Shown here piece by piece: positions 1-33,520 of a stretch of DNA of 33,520 nt. The position numbers and the translations under genes were made by a program. The stretch comes from a virus. The stretch lies in the IMG/VR virus record IMGVR_UViG_3300025874_000003; one strand, 5' to 3'. Under the pieces are notes generated by a model. The model did not search any database and was not told where the DNA came from. It saw nothing but the letters and a program-made list of their open reading frames with translations. Numbering within the stretch: the stretch's first letter is position 1; each line of letters begins with the position of its first letter.

Positions 1-127
1 CACGAAAACGTATGCGCTGTACGTTATGAGAATATAGAAAAGATACTAGAAGAGCGCGGCACAAGGCTCGACAGATTGGATGGTAAAATTGATGGACTAT
101 ATAAAACAGTCATTGCTTGTTCGCTTA
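1..127. repeat. Terminal overlap, copy 1 (identical to 33394-33520)
   Basis: Base-by-base comparison shows 1-127 equals 33394-33520. This implies a circular or circularly permuted molecule of 33,393 bp. Confidence 0.95.
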
Positions 128-5556: not shown

Positions 5557-5577
5557 ATTTTGGGAGGTATTACATTA
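5557..5577 (+). repeat. Solitary copy of the 21-bp motif (ATTTTGGGAGGTATTACATTA)
   Basis: Matches the tandem copies at 11672-11738 at 19 of 21 positions. It is in + orientation inside the minus-strand operon. Confidence 0.85.
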
Positions 5578-10109: not shown

Positions 10110-10763
10110 TTAAAAACCGTCTGCCCATGAGTTATCTGTGAGTCTGTTGAAGACTTTTTCTTTCTTCTCTGGCCTGTTAGCTGCAAAGCGTACTGCATTG
10201 ACGTACCAAGTTCTCCAAGCGGCTGCATAGTTGTGAACATTAGTCTTTTTAGCTTGGTGGTGAGAGGTAAATAGCATCCACTGCTCTTCCATATCGAACG
10301 CTGCACCCTTCTTTAACCAGTAAGCCGTTGCAGCACCAGCTAACTCTTCAGGTATCTCTTTATCTAATAATTGTTTATTACTTTGTTTATTACATTGTTT
10401 ATTCCTCTGCAATGGTTGCAGGGGTAGGGGTGCAACTGTTGCAGGGGTGGGGTCTAATGGTTGCAGGGGTGCAATGGTTGCAGGGGTCATAGGAACGGTA
10501 GCTTTATAGCGATTTGTAGTACCGCTATGCCCGCCATCGCTTCTATCGACCTCAAGCCACTGCGCCGCCTCTAACTTCTTAATATGCGCCCTTACTGTTT
10601 GCTCGGACAAACCTGTTTCACGGCTTATACGGCCAACAGAGGGCCAGCAGAGGTCACGCTTCATGTTCATATAGGTTCTGAGGTAACTTGCTACATATTT
10701 AGAGTTAGACGGTAGTTCAGTCTTCCAAATCAATTCTAGCCAGTCGATTACTGATGTGCTCAT
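10110..10763 (-). CDS. Replication initiator (lambda O-like organisation: N-terminal wHTH, iteron-encoding linker, C-terminal domain)
   Basis: N-terminal NSKYVASYLRTYMN...WPSVGRISRETGLSEQTVRAHIKKLEAAQWLEV is a winged HTH typical of phage replication proteins. The central part is encoded by DNA repeats (see 10371-10487). Confidence 0.65.
   Translation of the reverse strand: MSTSVIDWLELIWKTELPSNSKYVASYLRTYMNMKRDLCWPSVGRISRETGLSEQTVRAHIKKLEAAQWLEVDRSDGGHSGTTNRYKATVPMTPATIAPLQPLDPTPATVAPLPLQPLQRNKQCNKQSNKQLLDKEIPEELAGAATAYWLKKGAAFDMEEQWMLFTSHHQAKKTNVHNYAAAWRTWYVNAVRFAANRPEKKEKVFNRLTDNSWADGF
10371..10487. repeat. Candidate origin of replication inside the initiator gene
   Basis: Three copies of TTGTTTATTAC at 12-bp spacing (10371, 10383, 10395). 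Four copies of (T/G)GTTGCAGGGGT ending at 10425, 10448, 10470 and 10487. Confidence 0.6.
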
Positions 10764-10908: not shown

Positions 10909-11336
10909 GCGTAATCCTCAAATTCTAAATACTCGGTTTCACCATTATTGCGCTTTTCACTCAAAATGGCGTGCTGCTTCTTATAATGCTTGGCTATGTG
11001 GCCAGCTTTATTATCTTTAAACATCTGTTTTGCCATGTTTATGTCGTTTTTACGCTCAGTAAGAATCTCATAACGACCAGAACCTAGCGTTTTCTCTGCC
11101 CAGAGCTGAAATTCGTGTGGATTAGCTCCCATTTTTTGATGACAGCCGTAGCAGTGTGCAAAGGCATTGTCACCGTGCCACCTGACTGACTTATTTGCGC
11201 GACCGTGATAATGAGAGCAATGCAAGCCAGTCGAACTGCGGTCATACGATTTAAAGCAGACCTCGCAGGTGTAATCTGTACGCTCGCGCACGCATTTACT
11301 GAACCAATTGTCTGCTGGGTCACGTTTAATCCCCAT
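10905..11336 (-). CDS. ninG: NinG/Rap-like structure-specific (HNH-type) recombination endonuclease
   Basis: FSKCVRERTDYTCEVC...LHCSHYHGRANKSVRWHGDNAFAHCYGCHQKMGANP parallels lambda Rap (FIRERDRDLPCISCG...DAGHY...[22 protein letters not shown]). Confidence 0.6.
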   Translation of the reverse strand: MGIKRDPADNWFSKCVRERTDYTCEVCFKSYDRSSTGLHCSHYHGRANKSVRWHGDNAFAHCYGCHQKMGANPHEFQLWAEKTLGSGRYEILTERKNDINMAKQMFKDNKAGHIAKHYKKQHAILSEKRNNGETEYLEFEDYA

Positions 11337-11526
11337 TTTTAGCCTCGTTTCTGTCGTCTAACTGCTTCTGGACAACACAACCGAGGATAACTATTTCAAA
11401 TAAATCTCTGCGCTTAGAGAACCAACGTATGAGTGTTTCACTGCTAACATCTGTCATGTTTGACACTTGCTTGAGCGTTCTGAAGCCATAAGACTTTGCA
11501 TATTGTGACGGTGTAGTGAATTGCAT
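11326..11526 (-). CDS. Cro-like HTH regulator, first gene of the leftward arm
   Basis: 66 aa. LKQVSNMTDVSSETLIRWF is an HTH. It lies directly next to the divergent control region. Confidence 0.55.
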   Translation of the reverse strand: MQFTTPSQYAKSYGFRTLKQVSNMTDVSSETLIRWFSKRRDLFEIVILGCVVQKQLDDRNEAKNGD

Positions 11527-11554
11527 ATTGATCTCCGTAGTTATAATGTCAACG

Positions 11555-11584
11555 ATTATATATATAAAGTGCGCGTATTAGCAA
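11555..11584 (-). promoter_or_regulatory. Candidate leftward sigma70 promoter (TTGCTA - 16 to 18 nt - TATAAT/TATATA)
   Basis: On the minus strand, TTGCTA (11584-11579) and TATAAT (11560-11555) lie about 30 nt upstream of ATG 11526. Confidence 0.35.
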
Positions 11585-11671
11585 ATATATTTAGTGGATT
11601 TTAATAAATCTTTTTATCAACTAGATTTATTTTATTTTTTCATACCACTTTTTTAAAAAGTTGTTTTCAAA

Positions 11672-11740
11672 ATTTTGGGAGGTATTTCATTGAAATTTTG
11701 GGAGGTATTCTCTTGGAATTTTGGGAGGTATTTCATTGGA
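11672..11740 (+). repeat. Three tandem copies of the 21-bp motif ATTTTGGGAGGTATT(T/C)(C/T)(A/C)TTG at exact 23-bp phase
   Basis: Copies start at 11672, 11695 and 11718. Copies 1 and 3 are identical. An AT-rich tract lies immediately to the left. Confidence 0.9.
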
Positions 11741-11772
11741 TTTGCTGACGGGAATCGGATTTTTTGTATTTT

Positions 11773-11810
11773 CACTGGGTAAACGTACAGTACTAAGTAA
11801 ATATACAGTA
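11773..11810. promoter_or_regulatory. Two degenerate, overlapping SOS-box-like sites
   Basis: CACTGGGTAAACGTACAGTA (11773-11792, CTGG-N8-ACAG) and TACTAAGTAAATATACAGTA (11791-11810, CTAA-N8-ACAG) share 2 nt. Confidence 0.4.
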
Positions 11811-11827
11811 CTTTTTTTGATCTTAAA

Positions 11828-11847
11828 CACTGTATATATATACAGTA
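11828..11847. promoter_or_regulatory. Consensus LexA operator (SOS box)
   Basis: CACTGTATATATATACAGTA matches TACTG(TA)5CAGTA at 19 of 20 positions. It covers the spacer and -10 of TTGATC (11817-11822) - 16 nt - TATACA (11839-11844). Confidence 0.75.
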
Positions 11848-11997
11848 CTTTTTTAAACCATAAAAACCCTTTTTTTTACCCGTATAAATAGAAGTAAGAA
11901 CAAAAGCCGCGCTTTATGTTTAAAGACTATAGCGGCCAGTCGTGCGCATTGATATAAGCCCCATTTTAAATATATATACATAATCTAAGGAAAAGGG

Positions 11998-12025
11998 TTG
12001 ATAATTTAAATTATTGCCCTATAAT
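11998..12025 (+). promoter_or_regulatory. Rightward sigma70 promoter TTGATA - 16 nt - TATAAT
   Basis: TTGATA at 11998-12003 and TATAAT at 12020-12025, 45 nt upstream of ATG 12071. Confidence 0.6.
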
Positions 12026-12070
12026 TCCACACAAGTCGCGAATAACGCGCAATTAAAAAGGGTGAACAAT

Positions 12071-12283
12071 ATGAAATTCATTAAACCAATAGACTTATGG
12101 ACTCACGGCGAAGCTGTTCTAAGCGGCCAGATTAAATTACAACGCGGGCAATGGGTGAAGTGCGGCTCGCAATTGTCGCGTTTTGTAGGCGTAAAAGACA
12201 AGCGGTCTTTATGGGTTGCGCATTCACAAGGCAATAAGGCCGACACTAGGAAGCGCTTTATTGACTTATGCGAGGCCTTCTAA
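12071..12283 (+). CDS. Hypothetical protein, first gene of the rightward ORFan operon
   Basis: ATG 12071 follows AAAAAGGGTGA. The ORF-track start TTG 12014 lies inside the promoter. Confidence 0.65.
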   Translation: MKFIKPIDLWTHGEAVLSGQIKLQRGQWVKCGSQLSRFVGVKDKRSLWVAHSQGNKADTRKRFIDLCEAF

Positions 12284-12456
12284 TGATAACTAACGACTAC
12301 AAAAACGGCGCGTATAAGGCGCGCAAAGCGGGCAAAGGCGCAACTATAGCTAGTGAGCCTAGCATTCTAGCCCAAACCATTACAGGACTATTAAGCGGCT
12401 TTATATTGGCCGCTCCCATTGCTTTTTATATTATTACTAACTATTCAGGGGCTTAA
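12283..12456 (+). CDS. Small protein with a C-terminal TM segment
   Basis: TAATG junction with GAGG 8 nt upstream. C-terminal ITGLLSGFILAAPIAFYIIT. Confidence 0.6.
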   Translation: MITNDYKNGAYKARKAGKGATIASEPSILAQTITGLLSGFILAAPIAFYIITNYSGA

Positions 12457-12458
12457 AA

Positions 12459-12644
12459 ATGGACAATTTACACGCAATTATTGACACGCAATCGGAAGAA
12501 ATTATTTTGACTGGCGGCGAATCTGAAGTTTTAAAGTATATGAATTCTATTATTAAAACTAACGGTAAAAATGATTTAACAAAATTAAACCGTTACGAAG
12601 TTATTACAGGCGAAAAAAACACTATTCTAAATTTTTATAAATAA
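12459..12644 (+). CDS. Hypothetical protein
   Basis: 61-aa ORF beginning 2 nt after the upstream stop. Confidence 0.55.
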   Translation: MDNLHAIIDTQSEEIILTGGESEVLKYMNSIIKTNGKNDLTKLNRYEVITGEKNTILNFYK

Positions 12645-12656
12645 AGGGTTTAAAAA

Positions 12657-13016
12657 ATGGATTATCAAACAATAGAAAATAAATGCGAGAGTACGCCATT
12701 TAAGTGCATAACATTGCAAGGCCATTGCCGTATCGAGCTTTATTGGTCAAAGAATAGCGGCGTTAATGGTCATCAAGTTTACGGCGTATTACATGATAGA
12801 AAGATAGATTCTATTTTTATGCGAACACAAGGGTGTCAGTATTCAAAAGAGGAATTTATTCTTGATCTTTTATTAAGAAAAGTGGGCATTATGCCAAGGG
12901 GTCAAAGTTTAGGCGGCGCGACAATCCCCCATAACTATTACATATGCGGCAATTACTACAAAGTACCTAAAAAAGACGTTTTAAAAATTAAACCACGCAA
13001 AAAGGCGGTCAAATAA
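12657..13016 (+). CDS. Hypothetical Cys-containing protein
   Basis: 119-aa ORF with AAAGGG upstream of the ATG. Confidence 0.65.
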   Translation: MDYQTIENKCESTPFKCITLQGHCRIELYWSKNSGVNGHQVYGVLHDRKIDSIFMRTQGCQYSKEEFILDLLLRKVGIMPRGQSLGGATIPHNYYICGNYYKVPKKDVLKIKPRKKAVK

Positions 13017-13258
13017 TGCAAAATTCAATTATGAAAAGCAACGGTAAAATTAAAGGCGAGCGGCTAATGGTCAAGTCATACAAAGACGCCGACCTTATGC
13101 ACAAGTTCTTAAACGCGCAAAACAATAACGACTGGCGAGTCAATGATCAAGCGGGCATTTTTGCCTCACTACCGCATAAAAGCGGGCATTATGCCTATGC
13201 TGGAGGCGCTTGGCACAATATTAAAGGCTTAGACTTAACAATACTGGCGCATTTATAA
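13016..13258 (+). CDS. Hypothetical protein
   Basis: 80-aa ORF with a TAATG junction. Confidence 0.6.
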   Translation: MQNSIMKSNGKIKGERLMVKSYKDADLMHKFLNAQNNNDWRVNDQAGIFASLPHKSGHYAYAGGAWHNIKGLDLTILAHL

Positions 13259-13268
13259 GGAGCGAATA

Positions 13269-13433
13269 ATGGAGCAGATAGACTCTAATCAGTACTTTAT
13301 GGATATGTTTTTAGAATACTTTAACAATTTCTTAACTTATGAATACTTTGCGGAATACTTCGCGCTTGATGTTGAAGTGGCCAGATACATTATTGATCAT
13401 GGCCGCAAACTGTATCAGGCGAAGTACGGCTAA
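13269..13433 (+). CDS. 54-aa hypothetical protein (MEQIDSNQYFMDMFLEYFNNF...)
   Basis: Hand translation. AAGGAG lies 7 nt upstream of the ATG. Below the ORF-track length cutoff. Confidence 0.6.
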   Translation: MEQIDSNQYFMDMFLEYFNNFLTYEYFAEYFALDVEVARYIIDHGRKLYQAKYG

Positions 13434-13487
13434 ATATATTAATCAGTAAAAACAATGGCTTAAATGCTACAATATAAGGGTGAAATT

Positions 13488-13808
13488 ATGACTGATAGAA
13501 TAAAGATTATTAATTTACACGCGCAAGCCAGAGAGCTAAATGCGTTAAGTGAGCATAGGTTGTTAGAGTCTATTTATAGCGATATACCTGAGCGCGGTAA
13601 ATATATCATTAGAGCGGGCACTTATTATGAGCTTAGACAATGGTTAACCATAGGCGCGCATTTTGAGAGTAACCCAGTATATAAGGCAAAGACTAAGCGA
13701 GAACTATTCAACGCTATACAGTGCGCCATTGATATACTACAGGACAATAAGCGGGCCATTGTTAACAATCATTGGGACGATAAGCACGGCAATGGTGGTT
13801 CCTTATGA
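13488..13808 (+). CDS. Hypothetical protein
   Basis: ATG 13488 follows AAGGGTGA. The ORF-track start at 13464 has no Shine-Dalgarno. Confidence 0.6.
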   Translation: MTDRIKIINLHAQARELNALSEHRLLESIYSDIPERGKYIIRAGTYYELRQWLTIGAHFESNPVYKAKTKRELFNAIQCAIDILQDNKRAIVNNHWDDKHGNGGSL

Positions 13809-13912
13809 TGGGCCAAAGCGAGGAGCTATTATTCGCTATTGTGTTTGTCTATATGATAGCCGCATTAATATATAACATAGCCACAGACTGGCAACACTTT
13901 TGGGATGATTAG
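13805..13912 (+). CDS. 35-aa membrane peptide (MMGQSEELLFAIVFVYMIAALIYNIATDWQHFWDD)
   Basis: ATGA overlap with the upstream stop, and a single TM segment. Confidence 0.4.
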   Translation: MMGQSEELLFAIVFVYMIAALIYNIATDWQHFWDD

Positions 13913-13967
13913 AACCCCTTATTTTTGGAATCTATTACATCCACACCTATACAAGAACACACAACAG

Positions 13968-13992
13968 CCCACCTTAATACGTGGGTTTTTTT
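13968..13992 (+). terminator. Rho-independent terminator ending the ORFan operon
   Basis: CCCAC (13968-13972), loop CTTAATAC, GTGGG (13981-13985), then a run of 7 T. Confidence 0.6.
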
Positions 13993-14207: not shown

Positions 14208-14234
14208 TTGATTCTCAAAGACGGCGCGTATAAT
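14208..14234 (+). promoter_or_regulatory. Candidate promoter for the structural operon (TTGATT - 15 nt - TATAAT)
   Basis: TTGATT at 14208-14213 and TATAAT at 14229-14234, 32 nt upstream of the terS ATG. The spacer is short. Confidence 0.35.
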
Positions 14235-14265: not shown

Positions 14266-14628
14266 ATGACAGATAGAAAACGAGGCAGACCAGAAGTAGA
14301 GTTTGACTTAGTTGAGCTAGAAGACCTCTCAAGGTCACATTGCTCGTTTATAGAGCTTGCTAAGTTCTATAATTGCTCCGAAACCACAGTTAAAGATCGT
14401 TATAAGAACGATTTAGACTTTAAAGGCGCTGTAGATCGTGGTAGATTTGAGGCAATTAAGGGTTTGCGCCGTAAACAGCTAGAAATGGCTATGGATGGCA
14501 ACACCCAATTAGCTATTTGGCTCGGTAAGCAGATGCTAGGACAGACTGACAAGGCTGAGATTGATCAATTGTCTCGCGTAGAGCCAATCAGCATTGAAAT
14601 CGTTAATCCCGATGGCAGTTTGACCTAA
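14266..14628 (+). CDS. terS: Terminase small subunit (HTH type)
   Basis: KRGRPEVEF...SFIELAKFYNCSETTVKDRYKND...FKGAVDRG...GNTQLAIWLGKQMLGQTD is the common small-terminase HTH pattern. It sits upstream of terL. Confidence 0.7.
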   Translation: MTDRKRGRPEVEFDLVELEDLSRSHCSFIELAKFYNCSETTVKDRYKNDLDFKGAVDRGRFEAIKGLRRKQLEMAMDGNTQLAIWLGKQMLGQTDKAEIDQLSRVEPISIEIVNPDGSLT

Positions 14629-14700
14629 AAAAAATTTCTCCCCTACGGGGGGTATACCAAATCTCTCAAGAATTGCGAAATCAGTAAATGGCTTTGTAAT

Positions 14701-14744
14701 TTTTTGGGAGGTTAATCATTAAGATTTTGGGAGCTTATTCATTG
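14701..14744 (+). repeat. Two diverged tandem copies of the 21-bp motif, 23-bp phase, abutting the terL start codon
   Basis: TTTTTGGGAGGTTAATCATTA (14701-14721) and ATTTTGGGAGCTTATTCATTG (14724-14744). The TTTGGGAG cores lie at 14703 and 14726. Confidence 0.8.
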
Positions 14745-14745
14745 A

Positions 14746-15984
14746 ATGGCTAAATTAACGCCGACCAAGCCGCAATTTGATTATATCAATACAGAGGCTA
14801 AATTCCCTGCGCTAGTTGCAGGATTTGGTGCTGGCAAGACCGAAGCAGCCGTACAGCGGTGCATTATCGGTAAATTAAGGAACCCCACTACAAATAGGGG
14901 CTTCTACGAACCTACCTACGATTTGATTCGTATGATTGCGTGGCCGCGTTTCGAGGAAATCCTCACCGAGCTGCAAATACCCTATAAACTACACAAGTCG
15001 CCTCTAAACTACATAGACCTTGGCGCTTACGGTCAGATAATCTTCCGCTCAATGGAGAATATCAACCGAATCATCGGTTATGCCCATGCCGATGCCGATA
15101 TTGACGAACTCGATACCTTAAAAGAATCCGATGCTGCTGCTGCGTTCCGAGCTATTATGGCTCGTAACCGTGAAGTCAAACCTAATGGTGAACCCAACAC
15201 AATTGGCGTAACCACCACACCTGAAGGCTTTAAATTCGTCTACAAGACGTGGAAAAAGAATCCTCAGAAAGGCTTTGAACTGATACAAGCGCCAACAGCG
15301 TCTAACCCGCATCTTCCCTCGGACTATGTGGAAAACTTAAAGGCTATTTACCCTAATAACCTGCTCTCAGCATATTTGAACGGCGAGTTCGTCAACTTAA
15401 CCCAAGGAACTGTCTATAACGGCTATAACCGTGACAAAAACCAGAGCGATGCAACGATTAATCGCTTTGACTTCCTTATGGTCGGTATGGATTTCAACGT
15501 AACGGCAATGTCGGCGGTAGTCTTCGTGCAACGTAACGGTATATACCATGCAGTCAAAGAATTGACGGGTATCTACGATACGCCAACCATGATCCATACA
15601 CTGAAGACTAAATTCCCTAATCACAACATTGCGGTGTACCCAGATGCGTCTGGCGCGTCAAGAAAGACCGTGAATGCAAGTATATCCGATATATCCCTGT
15701 TAGAAACGGCAGGATTTGAGTGTAGAGCACCTAAGAAAAACCCTTTTATCAAAGATCGAGTCATGGCCGCTAATGCCGCCTTTGAATCAAGCCAAGTATT
15801 GATAAATTCCGATGAATGTCCTGAACTTTCCAGTAGTTTAGAGCAATTAACCTACGATAATAACGGCGTACCCGACAAAACCTCTGGTTTAGATCATTTA
15901 ATAGACGCTGCGACCTATCCTATTGCCCACGAACTGCCAATTATCAAACCAATAGCGGCAGTGCCGTTTAAATTTGCGATTTAA
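14746..15984 (+). CDS. terL: Terminase large subunit
   Basis: Walker A VAGFGAGKTEA near the N-terminus. 412 aa, positioned directly before the portal gene. Confidence 0.85.
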   Translation: MAKLTPTKPQFDYINTEAKFPALVAGFGAGKTEAAVQRCIIGKLRNPTTNRGFYEPTYDLIRMIAWPRFEEILTELQIPYKLHKSPLNYIDLGAYGQIIFRSMENINRIIGYAHADADIDELDTLKESDAAAAFRAIMARNREVKPNGEPNTIGVTTTPEGFKFVYKTWKKNPQKGFELIQAPTASNPHLPSDYVENLKAIYPNNLLSAYLNGEFVNLTQGTVYNGYNRDKNQSDATINRFDFLMVGMDFNVTAMSAVVFVQRNGIYHAVKELTGIYDTPTMIHTLKTKFPNHNIAVYPDASGASRKTVNASISDISLLETAGFECRAPKKNPFIKDRVMAANAAFESSQVLINSDECPELSSSLEQLTYDNNGVPDKTSGLDHLIDAATYPIAHELPIIKPIAAVPFKFAI

Positions 15985-20678: not shown

Positions 20679-21208
20679 GTGTCGATTACAACTTAATAAC
20701 CGAGTCTTCTACTGGCGACATTTACAATATTGACGCAGGTTCGATTACAGATGCTGTAGCAGCCGATCTTAGTAAGCCGTTTAGAAATATACGTATAGGA
20801 TTTGAATCTCTGTTTAATACAATGTGTACAAATTTAAGCATTACACATAAAATATATGAAAATACAGACTTCGATTTATCTGAAGTTTTAAAGACTAACT
20901 TAAATGCTGAATGGGTTGTAGGTACGTTACTACCAGCAAATACAGCTACGGCTAGTCTTGGTACATCTGGAACAGAGCGACACGATGGGCTTTTCCAGAT
21001 TGATTACTACAGCAAAACTGGTGTTGGCGGATTTACTGATCGTGTAGACAGTATCGCTAACTACTTTACCAGAGGCATGAAAATAACTTCTAACGGCACG
21101 GTCGTTAGGATTTTGAACGTATCACTTGGCGTTGGGCGCAGAGATGGTGCATTTTTTGTTAGAAATATAGATGTATCTTATTATGCGGTAACGCCCGCGA
21201 GGAATTAA
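20675..21208 (+). CDS. Tail completion / terminator-like protein
   Basis: 177 aa with an ATGA overlap, directly upstream of the tail tube gene. Assigned by position only. Confidence 0.4.
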   Translation: MSVDYNLITESSTGDIYNIDAGSITDAVAADLSKPFRNIRIGFESLFNTMCTNLSITHKIYENTDFDLSEVLKTNLNAEWVVGTLLPANTATASLGTSGTERHDGLFQIDYYSKTGVGGFTDRVDSIANYFTRGMKITSNGTVVRILNVSLGVGRRDGAFFVRNIDVSYYAVTPARN

Positions 21209-33340: not shown

Positions 33341-33520
33341 TGGAATTATCAATGGAACAGAAGATTGACAAGGCTCTAGCTCGCATAGAGGGCCACGAAA
33401 ACGTATGCGCTGTACGTTATGAGAATATAGAAAAGATACTAGAAGAGCGCGGCACAAGGCTCGACAGATTGGATGGTAAAATTGATGGACTATATAAAAC
33501 AGTCATTGCTTGTTCGCTTA
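33340..33520 (+). CDS. 5' part of the junction-spanning gene (continues as 128-168 after circularisation)
   Basis: TAATG overlap with the fibre stop. MELSMEQKIDKALARIEGHENVCAVRYENIEKILEERG... is a coiled coil, and the frame is conserved across the 33,393-bp period. Confidence 0.6.
   Translation, partial: MELSMEQKIDKALARIEGHENVCAVRYENIEKILEERGTRLDRLDGKIDGLYKTVIACSL
33394..33520. repeat. Terminal overlap, copy 2 (identical to 1-127)
   Basis: Exact 127-bp duplicate of the window start. Confidence 0.95.

What the first reader, a model, noticed from the sequence alone, without database searches (positions are those of the whole stretch)
11773..11847. Consensus LexA SOS-box cluster in the divergent control region of a phage with no repressor or integrase
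11828-11847 reads CACTGTATATATATACAGTA, a 19 of 20 match to the gammaproteobacterial LexA consensus TACTG(TA)5CAGTA. Few chromosomal SOS genes match the consensus this closely. It covers the spacer and -10 of a rightward promoter candidate, TTGATC (11817-11822) - 16 nt - TATACA (11839-11844). Because it is palindromic with a TATA core, it could equally occlude a leftward promoter.

Two weaker boxes lie just upstream at 11773-11792 (CTGG-N8-ACAG) and 11791-11810 (CTAA-N8-ACAG). They overlap by 2 nt, an arrangement that resembles the double SOS boxes of colicin operons.

I can find no CI/S24-type repressor, antirepressor, integrase or excisionase anywhere in the 33.4 kb. My inference is that host LexA is the phage's master switch. 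It could gate early expression during a carrier or episomal state, as in the LexA-dependent tectivirus GIL01. Alternatively it could tie the ORFan operon to host DNA damage. Such a circuit in a siphovirus with Erf/NinB/NinG would be unusual.
Basis: partly seen in the sequence, partly recalled or inferred. Interest (0 to 1): 0.8.

Follow-up and report, generated by a model that had tools for sequence, protein, structure and literature searches.

The report
Host LexA operator array in marine phage
A complete 33.4-kb genome of an uncultured marine tailed phage with no lysogeny genes carries three near-consensus binding sites for the host DNA-damage repressor LexA, so part of its early gene control probably listens to host DNA damage, but as an optional add-on rather than a master switch.

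Summary
The three 20-mers are at the stated coordinates and are the three best LexA-matrix scores in the window: 26.1, 18.3 and 13.1 bits, against a chance maximum of 12.0±2.3. Arrays of two or three such boxes, always 18 bp apart, occur at the same place in five diverged relatives. Their interiors differ but the CTG/CAG arms are kept. The consensus of 17 distinct boxes is TACTGTATAAATATACAGTA. They are almost certainly operators for a beta/gamma-proteobacterial LexA.

The window is a complete circular assembly (33,393 bp) with no integrase, S24 repressor, antirepressor or partition genes. However, the boxes lie in a 133-bp non-coding cassette (11748-11880) that misses both strong divergent promoters: P_L (11584-11555) and P_R (11998-12025). 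Otherwise collinear relatives carry an unrelated cassette there, so LexA input is dispensable.

My best reading is that the array tightly represses an auxiliary rightward promoter (TTGATC-N18-TACAGT) feeding the 1.9-kb ORFan early-right operon, which ends at a terminator at 13966-87. The target and direction are inferred, not shown. No promoter keeps a constant position relative to the arrays across lineages. This is a new variant of LexA co-option by mobile elements.

The parts
11773..11792 (.). LexA box 1, CACTGGGTAAACGTACAGTA
   Evidence: 18.3 bits, about the median of the E. coli training sites. It is invariant in all cassette-bearing close relatives.
11791..11810 (.). LexA box 2, TACTAAGTAAATATACAGTA. 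It starts 18 bp after box 1 and is weakened in this genome by G>A in the CTG arm.
   Evidence: 13.1 bits here. Relatives with CTGAG or CTGGG score 20.0-23.3 bits. The same 18-bp spacing is found in five lineages.
11828..11847 (.). LexA box 3, CACTGTATATATATACAGTA, a near-perfect consensus
   Evidence: 26.1 bits, above all training sites and all 300 shuffles. In relatives the centre varies (ATAT, GGAT, ATAC) while the arms are kept. It arose with its T-run as a 37-bp duplication of the box 2 module (repeat D4).
11748..11880 (.). Exchangeable non-coding cassette that holds the three boxes and the T-runs 11812-18, 11850-55 and 11870-78
   Evidence: Alignment of relatives shows sharp junctions after GGATTTGCTG and before CGTATAAA. 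An unrelated cassette of about 190 nt sits there in L001, L003 and L006.
11817..11846 (+). Candidate auxiliary rightward promoter: TTGATC-N18-TACAGT, or N16-TATACA. Box 3 covers its spacer and -10.
   Evidence: Second-best plus-strand promoter score in the intergenic region: 8.4 against 11.7 for P_R. Conserved in all window-type cassette carriers. It falls below the threshold of the consensus scan. Inferred, not shown.
11671..11743 (+). Three tandem copies (23-bp period) of the phage-specific motif AATTTTGGGAGGTATTTCATTG. The LexA array starts 54 nt after the start of the last copy.
   Evidence: Repeat family D2. The motif recurs at 14702-44, directly before the terminase ATG, and at 5558-77: 8 matches against 2.5 expected, reached by 0 of 100 shuffles. 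Its function is unknown.
11998..12025 (+). P_R, the main rightward early promoter TTGATA-16-TATAAT, with the palindrome ATAATTTAAATTAT (12001-14) in its spacer
   Evidence: 11/12 match to consensus. Conserved in relatives. The palindrome arms are conserved and its centre varies. The first gene's ATG is at 12071.
11555..11584 (-). P_L, the main leftward early promoter TTGCTA-18-TATAAT
   Evidence: 10/12 match. Conserved in relatives. It lies 28 nt upstream of the 66-aa gene's start at 11526.
11326..11526 (-). First gene of the left arm: a 66-aa helix-turn-helix-like protein and candidate phage regulator
   Evidence: Weak Pfam HTH hits at residues 17-38. The AlphaFold model (pLDDT 75) has three short helices plus one long helix. 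Only weak fold matches were found, all to DNA-binding HTH or homeodomain proteins, with E-values of 1.6 or more.
12071..13987 (+). Early-right operon of small ORFans, ending at an intrinsic terminator at 13966-13987. This is the most likely recipient of LexA-gated transcription.
   Evidence: ORF list. PHROG and Pfam give no function. The terminator AGCCCACC..GTGGGTT followed by T5 is.
10110..10763 (-). O-like replication initiator gene. It contains internal lambda-style repeats (10403-10487) and an AT-rich repeat (10370-10409), which is the more likely origin.
   Evidence: PHROG 270/391 and Pfam HTH_36. Repeat families D1 and D5.

Best explanation
The three sites are operators for the host's LexA repressor, of the CTGT-N8-ACAG class used by beta- and gamma-proteobacteria. 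Two dimers would bind 18 bp apart (boxes 1 and 2), and a third would bind 37 bp further on (box 3).

The array lies in a small, exchangeable, non-coding cassette. On its left is a phage-specific repeat array. On its right is the main rightward early promoter.

While LexA is intact, the array most likely keeps an auxiliary rightward promoter, TTGATC-N18-TACAGT, tightly shut. Box 3 covers that promoter's spacer and -10. Boxes 1 and 2, with the T-run, occupy the -45 to -80 zone where the RNA polymerase alpha subunit would dock.

LexA could be cleaved after DNA damage. It could also be cleaved once phage replication and Erf-type recombination generate RecA-activating single-stranded DNA. Either way, extra transcription would then enter the 1.9-kb early-right ORFan operon, which stops at the terminator at 13966-87.

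This is an optional SOS input laid on top of the phage's own P_L/P_R circuit. It is not the master switch of a repressor-less temperate phage.

Shown: the sites exist, match LexA better than chance, and are conserved as an array. The cassette is dispensable, and the genome is complete and lacks lysogeny genes.
Inferred: that LexA binds, which promoter and direction it controls, and the biological pay-off.
My estimates: about 0.8 that the sites are LexA operators, and about 0.4 that the target is a rightward promoter.
For: - Matrix scores of 26.1, 18.3 and 13.1 bits are the top three of the window, against a chance maximum of 12.0±2.3.
- Five diverged lineages carry two or three boxes at exactly 18-bp spacing. 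The first box starts 50-60 nt after the last motif copy. Box interiors and flanks differ between lineages. The lineages are window-type, L012/L050, L015/L048, L047 and L121.
- The consensus of 17 distinct boxes is TACTGTATAAATATACAGTA.
- Within the window-type lineage, variation falls in the box centres. The only change in a CTG/CAG arm is the window's own box 2.
- TTGATC-N18-TACAGT is the second-best plus-strand promoter of the intergenic region and is conserved in all window-type carriers.
- In L053 the identical module, box plus ACTTTTTTAAA, sits in the same orientation. It lies 38 nt upstream of an extended -10 promoter (TGaTATAAT) and a rightward ORFan. This argues that the module works on rightward transcription.
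- No plus-strand terminator lies between the array and the ORFan operon. The operon ends at a good terminator.
[quoted passage not shown] Tandem overlapping SOS boxes give very tight repression with no basal expression (PMC2994835). Several phages have independently co-opted LexA (PMC9437464, PMC4551915).
Against: - The host is unknown, so its LexA motif class is inferred from the boxes themselves.
- The candidate promoter is weak (8/12 to consensus, below the scan threshold), and any LexA box looks like a -10 element on both strands.
- No sigma-70-like promoter keeps a constant position relative to the arrays across the five lineages (and manual reading).
- L012, L015, L047 and L121 have no equivalent of box 3 over a promoter core.
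- P_R, 150 nt downstream, is already near-consensus, so an extra upstream promoter seems redundant unless P_R is shut by a phage regulator.
- The relation that is constant is to the unexplained TTTTGGGAG motif array. That could mean the array acts on something other than a promoter.
Confidence: 0.45

Rival explanations
1. GIL01-like master switch. The phage is temperate without an integrase, persists as an episome or carrier state, and host LexA bound to this array is what holds the lytic programme off.
For: The complete genome has no integrase or CI/S24 repressor. The array is tandem and high-affinity, like the tight operators used for lethal functions (PMC2994835). GIL01 is a precedent (PMC4551915).
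Against: The boxes do not overlap P_L or P_R. Collinear relatives lack the cassette altogether. No partition or plasmid-maintenance genes were found. The terminase was never seen on a contig longer than 50 kb. No gp7-like partner is identifiable.
Confidence: 0.08
2. The array controls leftward transcription. A LexA-covered promoter inside the array fires towards the motif repeats and on into the early-left replication and recombination operon. Its RNA would be antisense to the TTTTGGGAG motif (CCUCCCAAAA, three copies). It could also pair with the translation-start regions of the terminase and lysozyme genes, which carry the same motif.
For: Minus-strand candidates overlap the boxes: TTTAAG-16-TATATT and TTTAAA-17-TACAGT in the window, and TTGCTG-16-TATATT (score 8.1) in L012. 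The array keeps a fixed 50-60 nt distance to the motif array in five lineages. The motif lies at the terminase and lysozyme starts.
Against: The minus-strand candidates score below the plus-strand one in the window and are not conserved in L015 or L121. In L053 the module faces a coding gene on its left, so a leftward promoter there would only make antisense RNA. No terminator lies downstream on the minus strand.
Confidence: 0.15
3. The array has a non-promoter role. One version is a LexA sink: three strong sites on every replicating genome copy would draw LexA off host promoters and switch on host SOS functions. Another version is that LexA is a gate or architectural partner for whatever complex forms on the adjacent motif repeats.
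For: No promoter is consistently associated with the arrays. The sites are as strong as or stronger than chromosomal ones, up to 26 bits. They occur in multiples, and their position is constant relative to the motif array rather than to P_R.
Against: I know of no precedent, and my literature searches on other LexA questions surfaced none. The cassette is dispensable. The origin is more likely inside the O-like gene. Three sites per genome is a modest sink.
Confidence: 0.12
4. These are not LexA sites. They could be operators of a phage-encoded protein, weak intrinsic terminators (a palindrome followed by a T-run), or chance AT-rich palindromes.
For: Box 3 can form a -6 kcal/mol hairpin followed by T6, with z = -2.5. 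In L053 the module sits directly after a stop codon. The host is unknown.
Against: Most boxes have negligible hairpin stability, 0 to -3 kcal/mol, yet keep CTG-N10-CAG. No transcription is expected to arrive from the left. The match to the LexA matrix exceeds all shuffles. No phage LexA or S24 homologue was found. The same extended box, flanked by A/T runs, sits upstream of a UmuD/S24-like gene in two unrelated high-GC elements, which is an ordinary SOS context.
Confidence: 0.1

Closest known systems
GIL01 (Bacillus thuringiensis tectivirus): LexA dinBoxes at promoter P1, with co-repressor gp7
   Same: The phage has no CI-type repressor and no integrase. It carries several adjacent LexA boxes in its early control region (PMC4551915).
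   Different: In GIL01 the boxes overlap the main early promoter, and the 50-aa gp7 stabilises LexA. Its host is Gram-positive, and its lysogeny is a proven linear-plasmid state. Here the boxes miss both main promoters, the cassette is optional, no gp7-like factor is identified, and there is no evidence of lysogeny.
CTXphi PrstA/PrstR control by Vibrio cholerae LexA together with RstR
   Same: A gammaproteobacterial LexA box lies in a divergent phage control region. That matches the position of boxes 1 and 2 relative to TTGATC. PMC3323433 confirms LexA/RstR co-regulation.
   Different: CTXphi has a single box, its own repressor RstR, and is an integrating filamentous phage.
Colicin operon double SOS boxes
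   Same: Two adjacent LexA dimers give very tight repression with no basal expression, used for lethal functions (PMC2994835).
   Different: From my own recollection, colicin boxes overlap more, with centres about 15 bp apart, and lie directly downstream of a strong -10. Here the spacing is 18 bp, and no strong promoter precedes the array.
LexA-controlled antirepressor modules: coliphage 186 Tum, N15 AntC, Gifsy, SPC32H Ant
   Same: A LexA box on a phage genome links the phage to the SOS response (cited in PMC9437464).
   Different: Those boxes sit at the promoter of an antirepressor gene and act through a CI-type repressor. Here there is no gene directly behind the array and no CI-type repressor.
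Host-regulator co-option by lytic phages: Spo0A sites in phi29, and CtrA sites giving 'lytic deferment' in alphaproteobacterial phages
   Same: Sites for a host global regulator, placed in phage control regions, modulate timing rather than classical lysogeny (PMC9437464).
   Different: The regulator and the signal differ. A LexA version in a non-integrating tailed phage of proteobacteria did not turn up in the papers I searched.

Membership tests
Beta/gamma-proteobacterial LexA operator (SOS box) | A 16-mer palindrome CTGT-N8-ACAG with an AT-rich centre, within a 20-mer TACTG(TA)5CAGTA | tested here: met
   Box 3 is exact. Box 1 is CTGG..ACAG. Box 2 is CTAA..ACAG here and CTGA/CTGG in relatives. 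The motif definition is from PMC3323433.
Beta/gamma-proteobacterial LexA operator (SOS box) | A score within the range of experimentally known sites and above chance | tested here: met
   26.1, 18.3 and 13.1 bits against a training range of 13.2-24.5 and a shuffle maximum of 12.0±2.3. The matrix was built from sites I recalled, so it is approximate.
Beta/gamma-proteobacterial LexA operator (SOS box) | Conservation of the recognition arms with free variation elsewhere, across relatives | tested here: met
   Five lineages gave 17 distinct boxes with consensus TACTGTATAAATATACAGTA.
Beta/gamma-proteobacterial LexA operator (SOS box) | The box overlaps or abuts a promoter that it represses | tested here: inconclusive
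   Only a weak candidate exists, TTGATC-N18-TACAGT (score 8.4). No promoter is consistently placed across lineages.
Beta/gamma-proteobacterial LexA operator (SOS box) | The host encodes a LexA of this class, and that LexA binds the sites | not testable with these tools
   The host is unknown. The nearest homologues are in Vibrio and other marine phages. The one genome-collection hit is a Gammaproteobacteria MAG contig with 40% terminase identity.
GIL01-type LexA-maintained lysogeny | LexA boxes overlap the main early promoter, so that LexA alone silences the lytic programme | tested here: not met
   The boxes are about 190 nt from P_L and 150 nt from P_R. The cassette is absent from collinear relatives.
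GIL01-type LexA-maintained lysogeny | A small phage co-repressor (gp7) that binds LexA | not testable with these tools
   There are many small ORFans with no family hits. No gp7 sequence was available for comparison.
GIL01-type LexA-maintained lysogeny | A stable episomal prophage state | tested here: inconclusive
   No partition or integrase genes were found, and all contigs are 50 kb or shorter. That is absence of evidence only.
Colicin-type double SOS operator | Two overlapping boxes directly downstream of a strong -10 | tested here: not met
   The boxes overlap by 2 nt (18-bp spacing). The best upstream candidate is only CTGACG-16-TATTTT (score 7.2), and it is not conserved in other lineages.
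LexA-controlled antirepressor module | The box lies at the promoter of an antirepressor gene, in a phage with a CI-type repressor | tested here: not met
   The next gene starts 224 nt downstream, behind its own promoter. No antirepressor or CI family hit was found.

The most novel reading that the evidence does not exclude
This is an abundant marine siphophage lineage that is strictly lytic or at least never integrates. In it, the tandem LexA array is one allele of an exchangeable 'host-signal input' cassette placed next to a phage-specific repeat array. LexA would then act as an infection timer or deferment gate, released when the phage's own replication or external damage activates RecA. Alternatively it would act as a LexA sink. 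In neither case is it a lysogeny switch. Other alleles of the cassette would plug in other inputs.
Probability: 0.2. Interest if true: 0.8.

Novelty: new variant of a known kind. Interest (0 to 1): 0.55.

Why it matters
LexA co-option is well known in temperate phages, plasmids and integrons. A conserved, multi-site LexA operator in a complete phage genome with no lysogeny apparatus is different. It would show that apparently lytic phages also read the host SOS state.

The array is polymorphic: carriers and non-carriers co-circulate with sharp recombination junctions. That offers a natural experiment on what the input is worth.

In practice, the box class predicts a beta- or gamma-proteobacterial host for an uncultured marine phage group. 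Contigs carrying the identical terminase were indexed in 228 blocks of the assembly collection.

Tried and rejected
- **DNA similarity to cultured phages.** No match for 11300-12400. The terminase is only about 50% identical to the nearest isolates.
- **Host identification.** The single genome-collection scan gave one distant MAG contig. Tail-fibre and replication-protein searches only point to marine phages.
- **Known RNA families.** Rfam gave nothing credible.
- **Terminator reading.** Only box 3 folds appreciably (-6 kcal/mol). Most boxes fold at 0 to -3 kcal/mol. Rejected as the main explanation.
- **LexA at the replication origin.** I first took the TTTTGGGAGG repeats for origin iterons. 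I rejected this because the same motif sits before the terminase gene, before a lysozyme gene in relatives, and at 5558-77. Lambda-style iterons also lie inside the O-like gene.
- **Small ORFs across the cassette.** These include a 51-aa ORF from the TTG at 11736, a 13-aa ORF at 11917 and a 42-aa minus-strand ORF. Their frames and starts are not conserved between relatives, so they are rejected as genes.
- **A promoter at a constant offset from the arrays.** None was found in either orientation (and manual inspection).
- **A downstream TATAAA/TATAAT.** It lies 35-38 nt after the last box in the window, L012 and L053, but not in L015, L047 or L121, and it has no -35. Left open.
- **The 66-aa protein.** The fold search gave only insignificant helix-turn-helix-like matches.
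- **The metagenome motif scan.** It returned mostly unrelated DNA, though it added lineage L121.

Full report
**1. The observation**

Box 3 is CACTGTATATATATACAGTA at 11828-47. Box 1 is CACTGGGTAAACGTACAGTA at 11773-92. Box 2 is TACTAAGTAAATATACAGTA at 11791-810 and shares 2 nt with box 1. TTGATC (11817-22) and TATACA (11839-44) are 16 nt apart.

I scored the window with a symmetrised matrix built from 20 E. coli LexA sites that I recalled from the literature, so the matrix is approximate. The three boxes are the three highest scores in the whole window: 26.1, 18.3 and 13.1 bits. The training sites score 13.2-24.5. The maximum in 300 Markov shuffles averaged 12.0±2.3, with a largest value of 23.0. 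Two sites of 8 bits or more within 80 nt occurred 0.05 times per shuffle. In 518 kb of mostly unrelated metagenome DNA, a single non-family site reached 18 bits. The loose pattern with one mismatch is not enriched across the genome, so the signal is this cluster.

**2. The genome and the region**

The first 127 nt of the window recur at 33394-33520. The window is therefore a closed circular assembly of 33,393 bp, that is, a complete genome.

The 545-bp intergenic region 11527-12070 separates two arms.
- The left arm starts with a 66-aa helix-turn-helix-like protein. It continues with NinG/Rap, an O-like replication initiator, Erf, SSB and NinB.
- The right arm starts with seven or eight small ORFans and ends at a good intrinsic terminator at 13966-87.
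- After that terminator come the small terminase at 14266, the large terminase at 14746, the head and tail genes, and an M15 endolysin.

No integrase, S24 repressor, antirepressor, excisionase or partition protein appears in any Pfam or PHROG scan (and the Pfam columns). The identical terminase is indexed in 228 blocks of the assembly collection, and the longest contig that carries it is never over 50 kb.

There is no DNA match to any cultured phage. The terminase is about 50% identical to Caulobacter and Kagunavirus terminases. The replication protein is 38% identical to those of Vibrio phages. The tail fibre matches Roseobacter phages and cyanophages. Related contigs come from marine samples, for example Tara assemblies. 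This is an uncultured marine siphophage whose host is unknown.

**3. Anatomy of the control region**

The two best sigma-70-type promoters are placed correctly for the two arms. P_L is TTGCTA-18-TATAAT (11584-11555, minus strand), 28 nt before the 66-aa gene. P_R is TTGATA-16-TATAAT (11998-12025), 45 nt before the first rightward gene. Both are conserved in relatives.

Between them, from left to right, lie:
- an inverted repeat (11592-11623), which is duplicated in some relatives;
- an AT-rich stretch;
- three tandem copies of AATTTTGGGAGGTATTTCATTG (11671-11743);
- the LexA boxes;
- a conserved block beginning CGTATAAA (11881 onward).

The P_R spacer holds the palindrome ATAATTTAAATTAT. Its arms are conserved and its centre varies in relatives. 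It looks like an operator for a phage regulator.

The boxes are thus about 190 nt from P_L and 150 nt from P_R.

**4. Comparative evidence that the boxes are functional**

*Close relatives.* Nine terminase-identical contigs cover the region. Six carry the three boxes. Box 1 is invariant. Box 2 reads CTGAG or CTGGG, so the window's CTAAG is a weakened copy. Box 3 varies only in its centre.

*More distant relatives*, found through the NinG-like protein, the repeat motif and the box module, show the same design with different sequences:
- L012/L050 has three boxes: TACTCTATATCTGCACAGTA, TACTGAGAATTTATACAGTA and TACTGCATAAATATACAGTA.
- L015/L048 has TACTGTGCAAAAACACAGCA and CACTGAGTATTTATACAGTA.
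- L047 has TACTGTATAAATCTACATAC and TACTGTATATCCAACCAGGA.
- L121 has TGCTGTAAATTCATACAGTA and TACTGTATAAAAATACAGTT.

In every one of these arrays, and between boxes 1 and 2 of the window-type lineage, adjacent boxes start exactly 18 bp apart, and the first box starts 50-60 nt after the last repeat copy. The consensus of the 17 distinct boxes is TACTGTATAAATATACAGTA. That is the motif described for E. coli and for most beta- and gamma-proteobacteria (PMC3323433).

Most boxes cannot form a meaningful hairpin: 0 to -3 kcal/mol. Box 3 reaches -6 kcal/mol. The palindrome-plus-T-run therefore does not explain them as terminators. Rfam finds nothing.

Two unrelated high-GC elements carry the same extended box with A/T-run flanks upstream of a UmuD/S24-like gene. 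That is an ordinary SOS context.

I conclude, at about 0.8, that these are LexA operators.

**5. Why LexA is not the master switch**

The boxes lie in a 133-bp cassette (11748-11880) with sharp junctions. L001, L003 and L006 are collinear with the window on both sides, yet they carry an unrelated cassette of about 190 nt in its place.

The same alternative cassette (…TTTTTTAGGC…) occurs in the L012-type lineage, in L013 and L020. Those two still retain a remnant right half-site, TACAGTATTTT. L016 and L017 carry a third type.

The two alleles therefore co-circulate in at least two sub-lineages, and the phage type exists without LexA input. Taken together with the distance from P_L and P_R and the candidate phage regulators, this does not fit a GIL01-style circuit. 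In GIL01, the LexA boxes on the main early promoter are the silencing mechanism (PMC4551915).

**6. What the array most likely does**

Tandem high-affinity boxes are the design that colicin operons use to abolish basal expression (PMC2994835).

In the window-type cassette, the second-best plus-strand promoter of the whole intergenic region is TTGATC-N18-TACAGT. It scores 8.4 against 11.7 for P_R. Box 3 covers its spacer and -10. Boxes 1 and 2 and the T-run fall at about -45 to -80.

LexA blocking the alpha C-terminal domain from upstream of the -35 is the mechanism I recall for CTXphi PrstA. That is my own knowledge. PMC3323433 confirms only that LexA and RstR co-regulate CTXphi.

In L053 the identical module (box plus ACTTTTTTAAA) lies in the same orientation inside the rightward operon. 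It sits 38 nt upstream of an extended -10 promoter and an ORFan. That favours action on rightward transcription.

No plus-strand terminator lies between the array and the ORFan operon. LexA-gated transcripts would therefore add to P_R transcripts and stop at 13966-87.

I therefore favour an auxiliary, SOS-released rightward promoter feeding the ORFan operon. I put this at about 0.4 for the direction and target, and 0.45 for the whole statement as worded.

**7. Weaknesses and rivals**

The candidate promoter is weak, and any LexA box resembles a -10 on both strands. No promoter keeps a constant offset to the arrays in the five lineages (and manual reading). The other lineages have no box over a promoter core. 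The constant partner of the array is the unexplained repeat motif.

The rivals are:
- A leftward LexA-covered promoter (0.15). Its RNA would be antisense to the motif, which also sits at the terminase and lysozyme starts.
- A non-promoter role, as a LexA sink or as a gate on the complex at the repeats (0.12).
- Not LexA at all (0.10).

**8. Novelty and score**

LexA co-option by mobile elements is established: GIL01, CTXphi, 186, N15, colicins and integrons (PMC9437464, PMC4551915, PMC3323433). Use of host regulators by lytic phages is known for Spo0A and CtrA (PMC9437464).

What is new here is the context and the form. The genome is complete and free of lysogeny genes, and the phage group is marine and uncultured. 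The array has a fixed 18-bp period and is conserved across five lineages. It lies away from the main promoters, inside an exchangeable cassette.

I rate it a new variant of a known kind, with interest 0.55. The most novel reading not excluded is an SOS-timed or deferred lytic programme, or a LexA sink, delivered by a swappable host-input cassette. I give that 0.2, and it would deserve about 0.8 if true.

Noticed in passing
window 11671-11743, 14702-14744, 5558-5577; also L027-L054: A phage-specific motif, (A)ATTTTGGGAG(G/C)TWTTYCATTG, always on the plus strand. There are three tandem copies in the control region and two that end 1 nt before the large-terminase ATG. One more lies antisense between ssb and the next gene. 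In relatives, two copies precede a T4-type lysozyme gene whose TTG start is the last 3 nt of the motif. There are 8 matches against 2.5 expected, reached by 0 of 100 shuffles. Its function is unknown. It contains a Shine-Dalgarno-like GGGAGG.
   Followed up: partly
window 10370-10487 (inside the O-like gene 10110-10763, minus strand): Four copies of AGGGGTGCAAC-N-GTTGCAGGGGT at 22-23 bp spacing lie next to three copies of the AT-rich ATTGTTTATTAC. This is a lambda-style origin layout inside the initiator gene, and a better origin candidate than the intergenic repeats.
   Followed up: partly
window 1-127 and 33394-33520: The first 127 nt are repeated exactly at the end of the window. This is the signature of a circular assembly, so the true genome length is 33,393 bp.
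   Followed up: yes
window 12001-12014: A perfect palindrome, ATAATTTAAATTAT, lies in the spacer of P_R. In relatives the arms ATAAT/ATTAT are kept and the centre varies. It is probably an operator for a phage-encoded regulator, possibly the 66-aa helix-turn-helix-like protein.
   Followed up: partly
window 13966-13987 and 14208-14234: A good intrinsic terminator closes the ORFan operon. The late genes begin 280 nt later, with only TTGATT-15-TATAAT upstream. How late transcription is switched on is therefore unclear.
   Followed up: no
window 21034-21053: TACTGATCGTGTAGACAGTA scores 13 bits as a LexA-like site inside the tail-terminator gene. It is present in all relatives, including those without the cassette. 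Its conservation is probably due to coding.
   Followed up: partly
L053:1783-1860 (IMGVR_UViG_3300007276_001808): The box 3 module, CACTGTATATACATACAGTACTTTTTTAAA, occurs outside the divergent region. It lies directly after a stop codon in the rightward operon and 38 nt before TGaTATAAT and a 74-aa ORFan. That ORFan has no homologue in the window.
   Followed up: partly
L013, L020, L001, L003 (aligned to window 11748-11880): An alternative cassette (…AAATTTTGGATTTTTTAGGC…) replaces the LexA cassette in two sub-lineages. L013 and L020 keep a remnant LexA right half-site at the junction. L016 and L017 carry a third cassette with four AWWTTGAC repeats. L015 combines LexA boxes with TTGACGCC repeats.
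   Followed up: partly
window 14628-14660: A CCCC-UACG-GGGG stem-loop lies directly after the small-terminase stop codon. It is preceded by an A8 run and is not followed by a T-run.
   Followed up: no
L055:3375-3401 and L056 (reverse complement):1545-1571: Two unrelated high-GC viral contigs carry AAAAAGTACTGTATAC.CATACAGTACTTTTT upstream of a divergently oriented UmuD/S24-like gene. This shows that A/T-run flanks can accompany ordinary SOS boxes.
   Followed up: no
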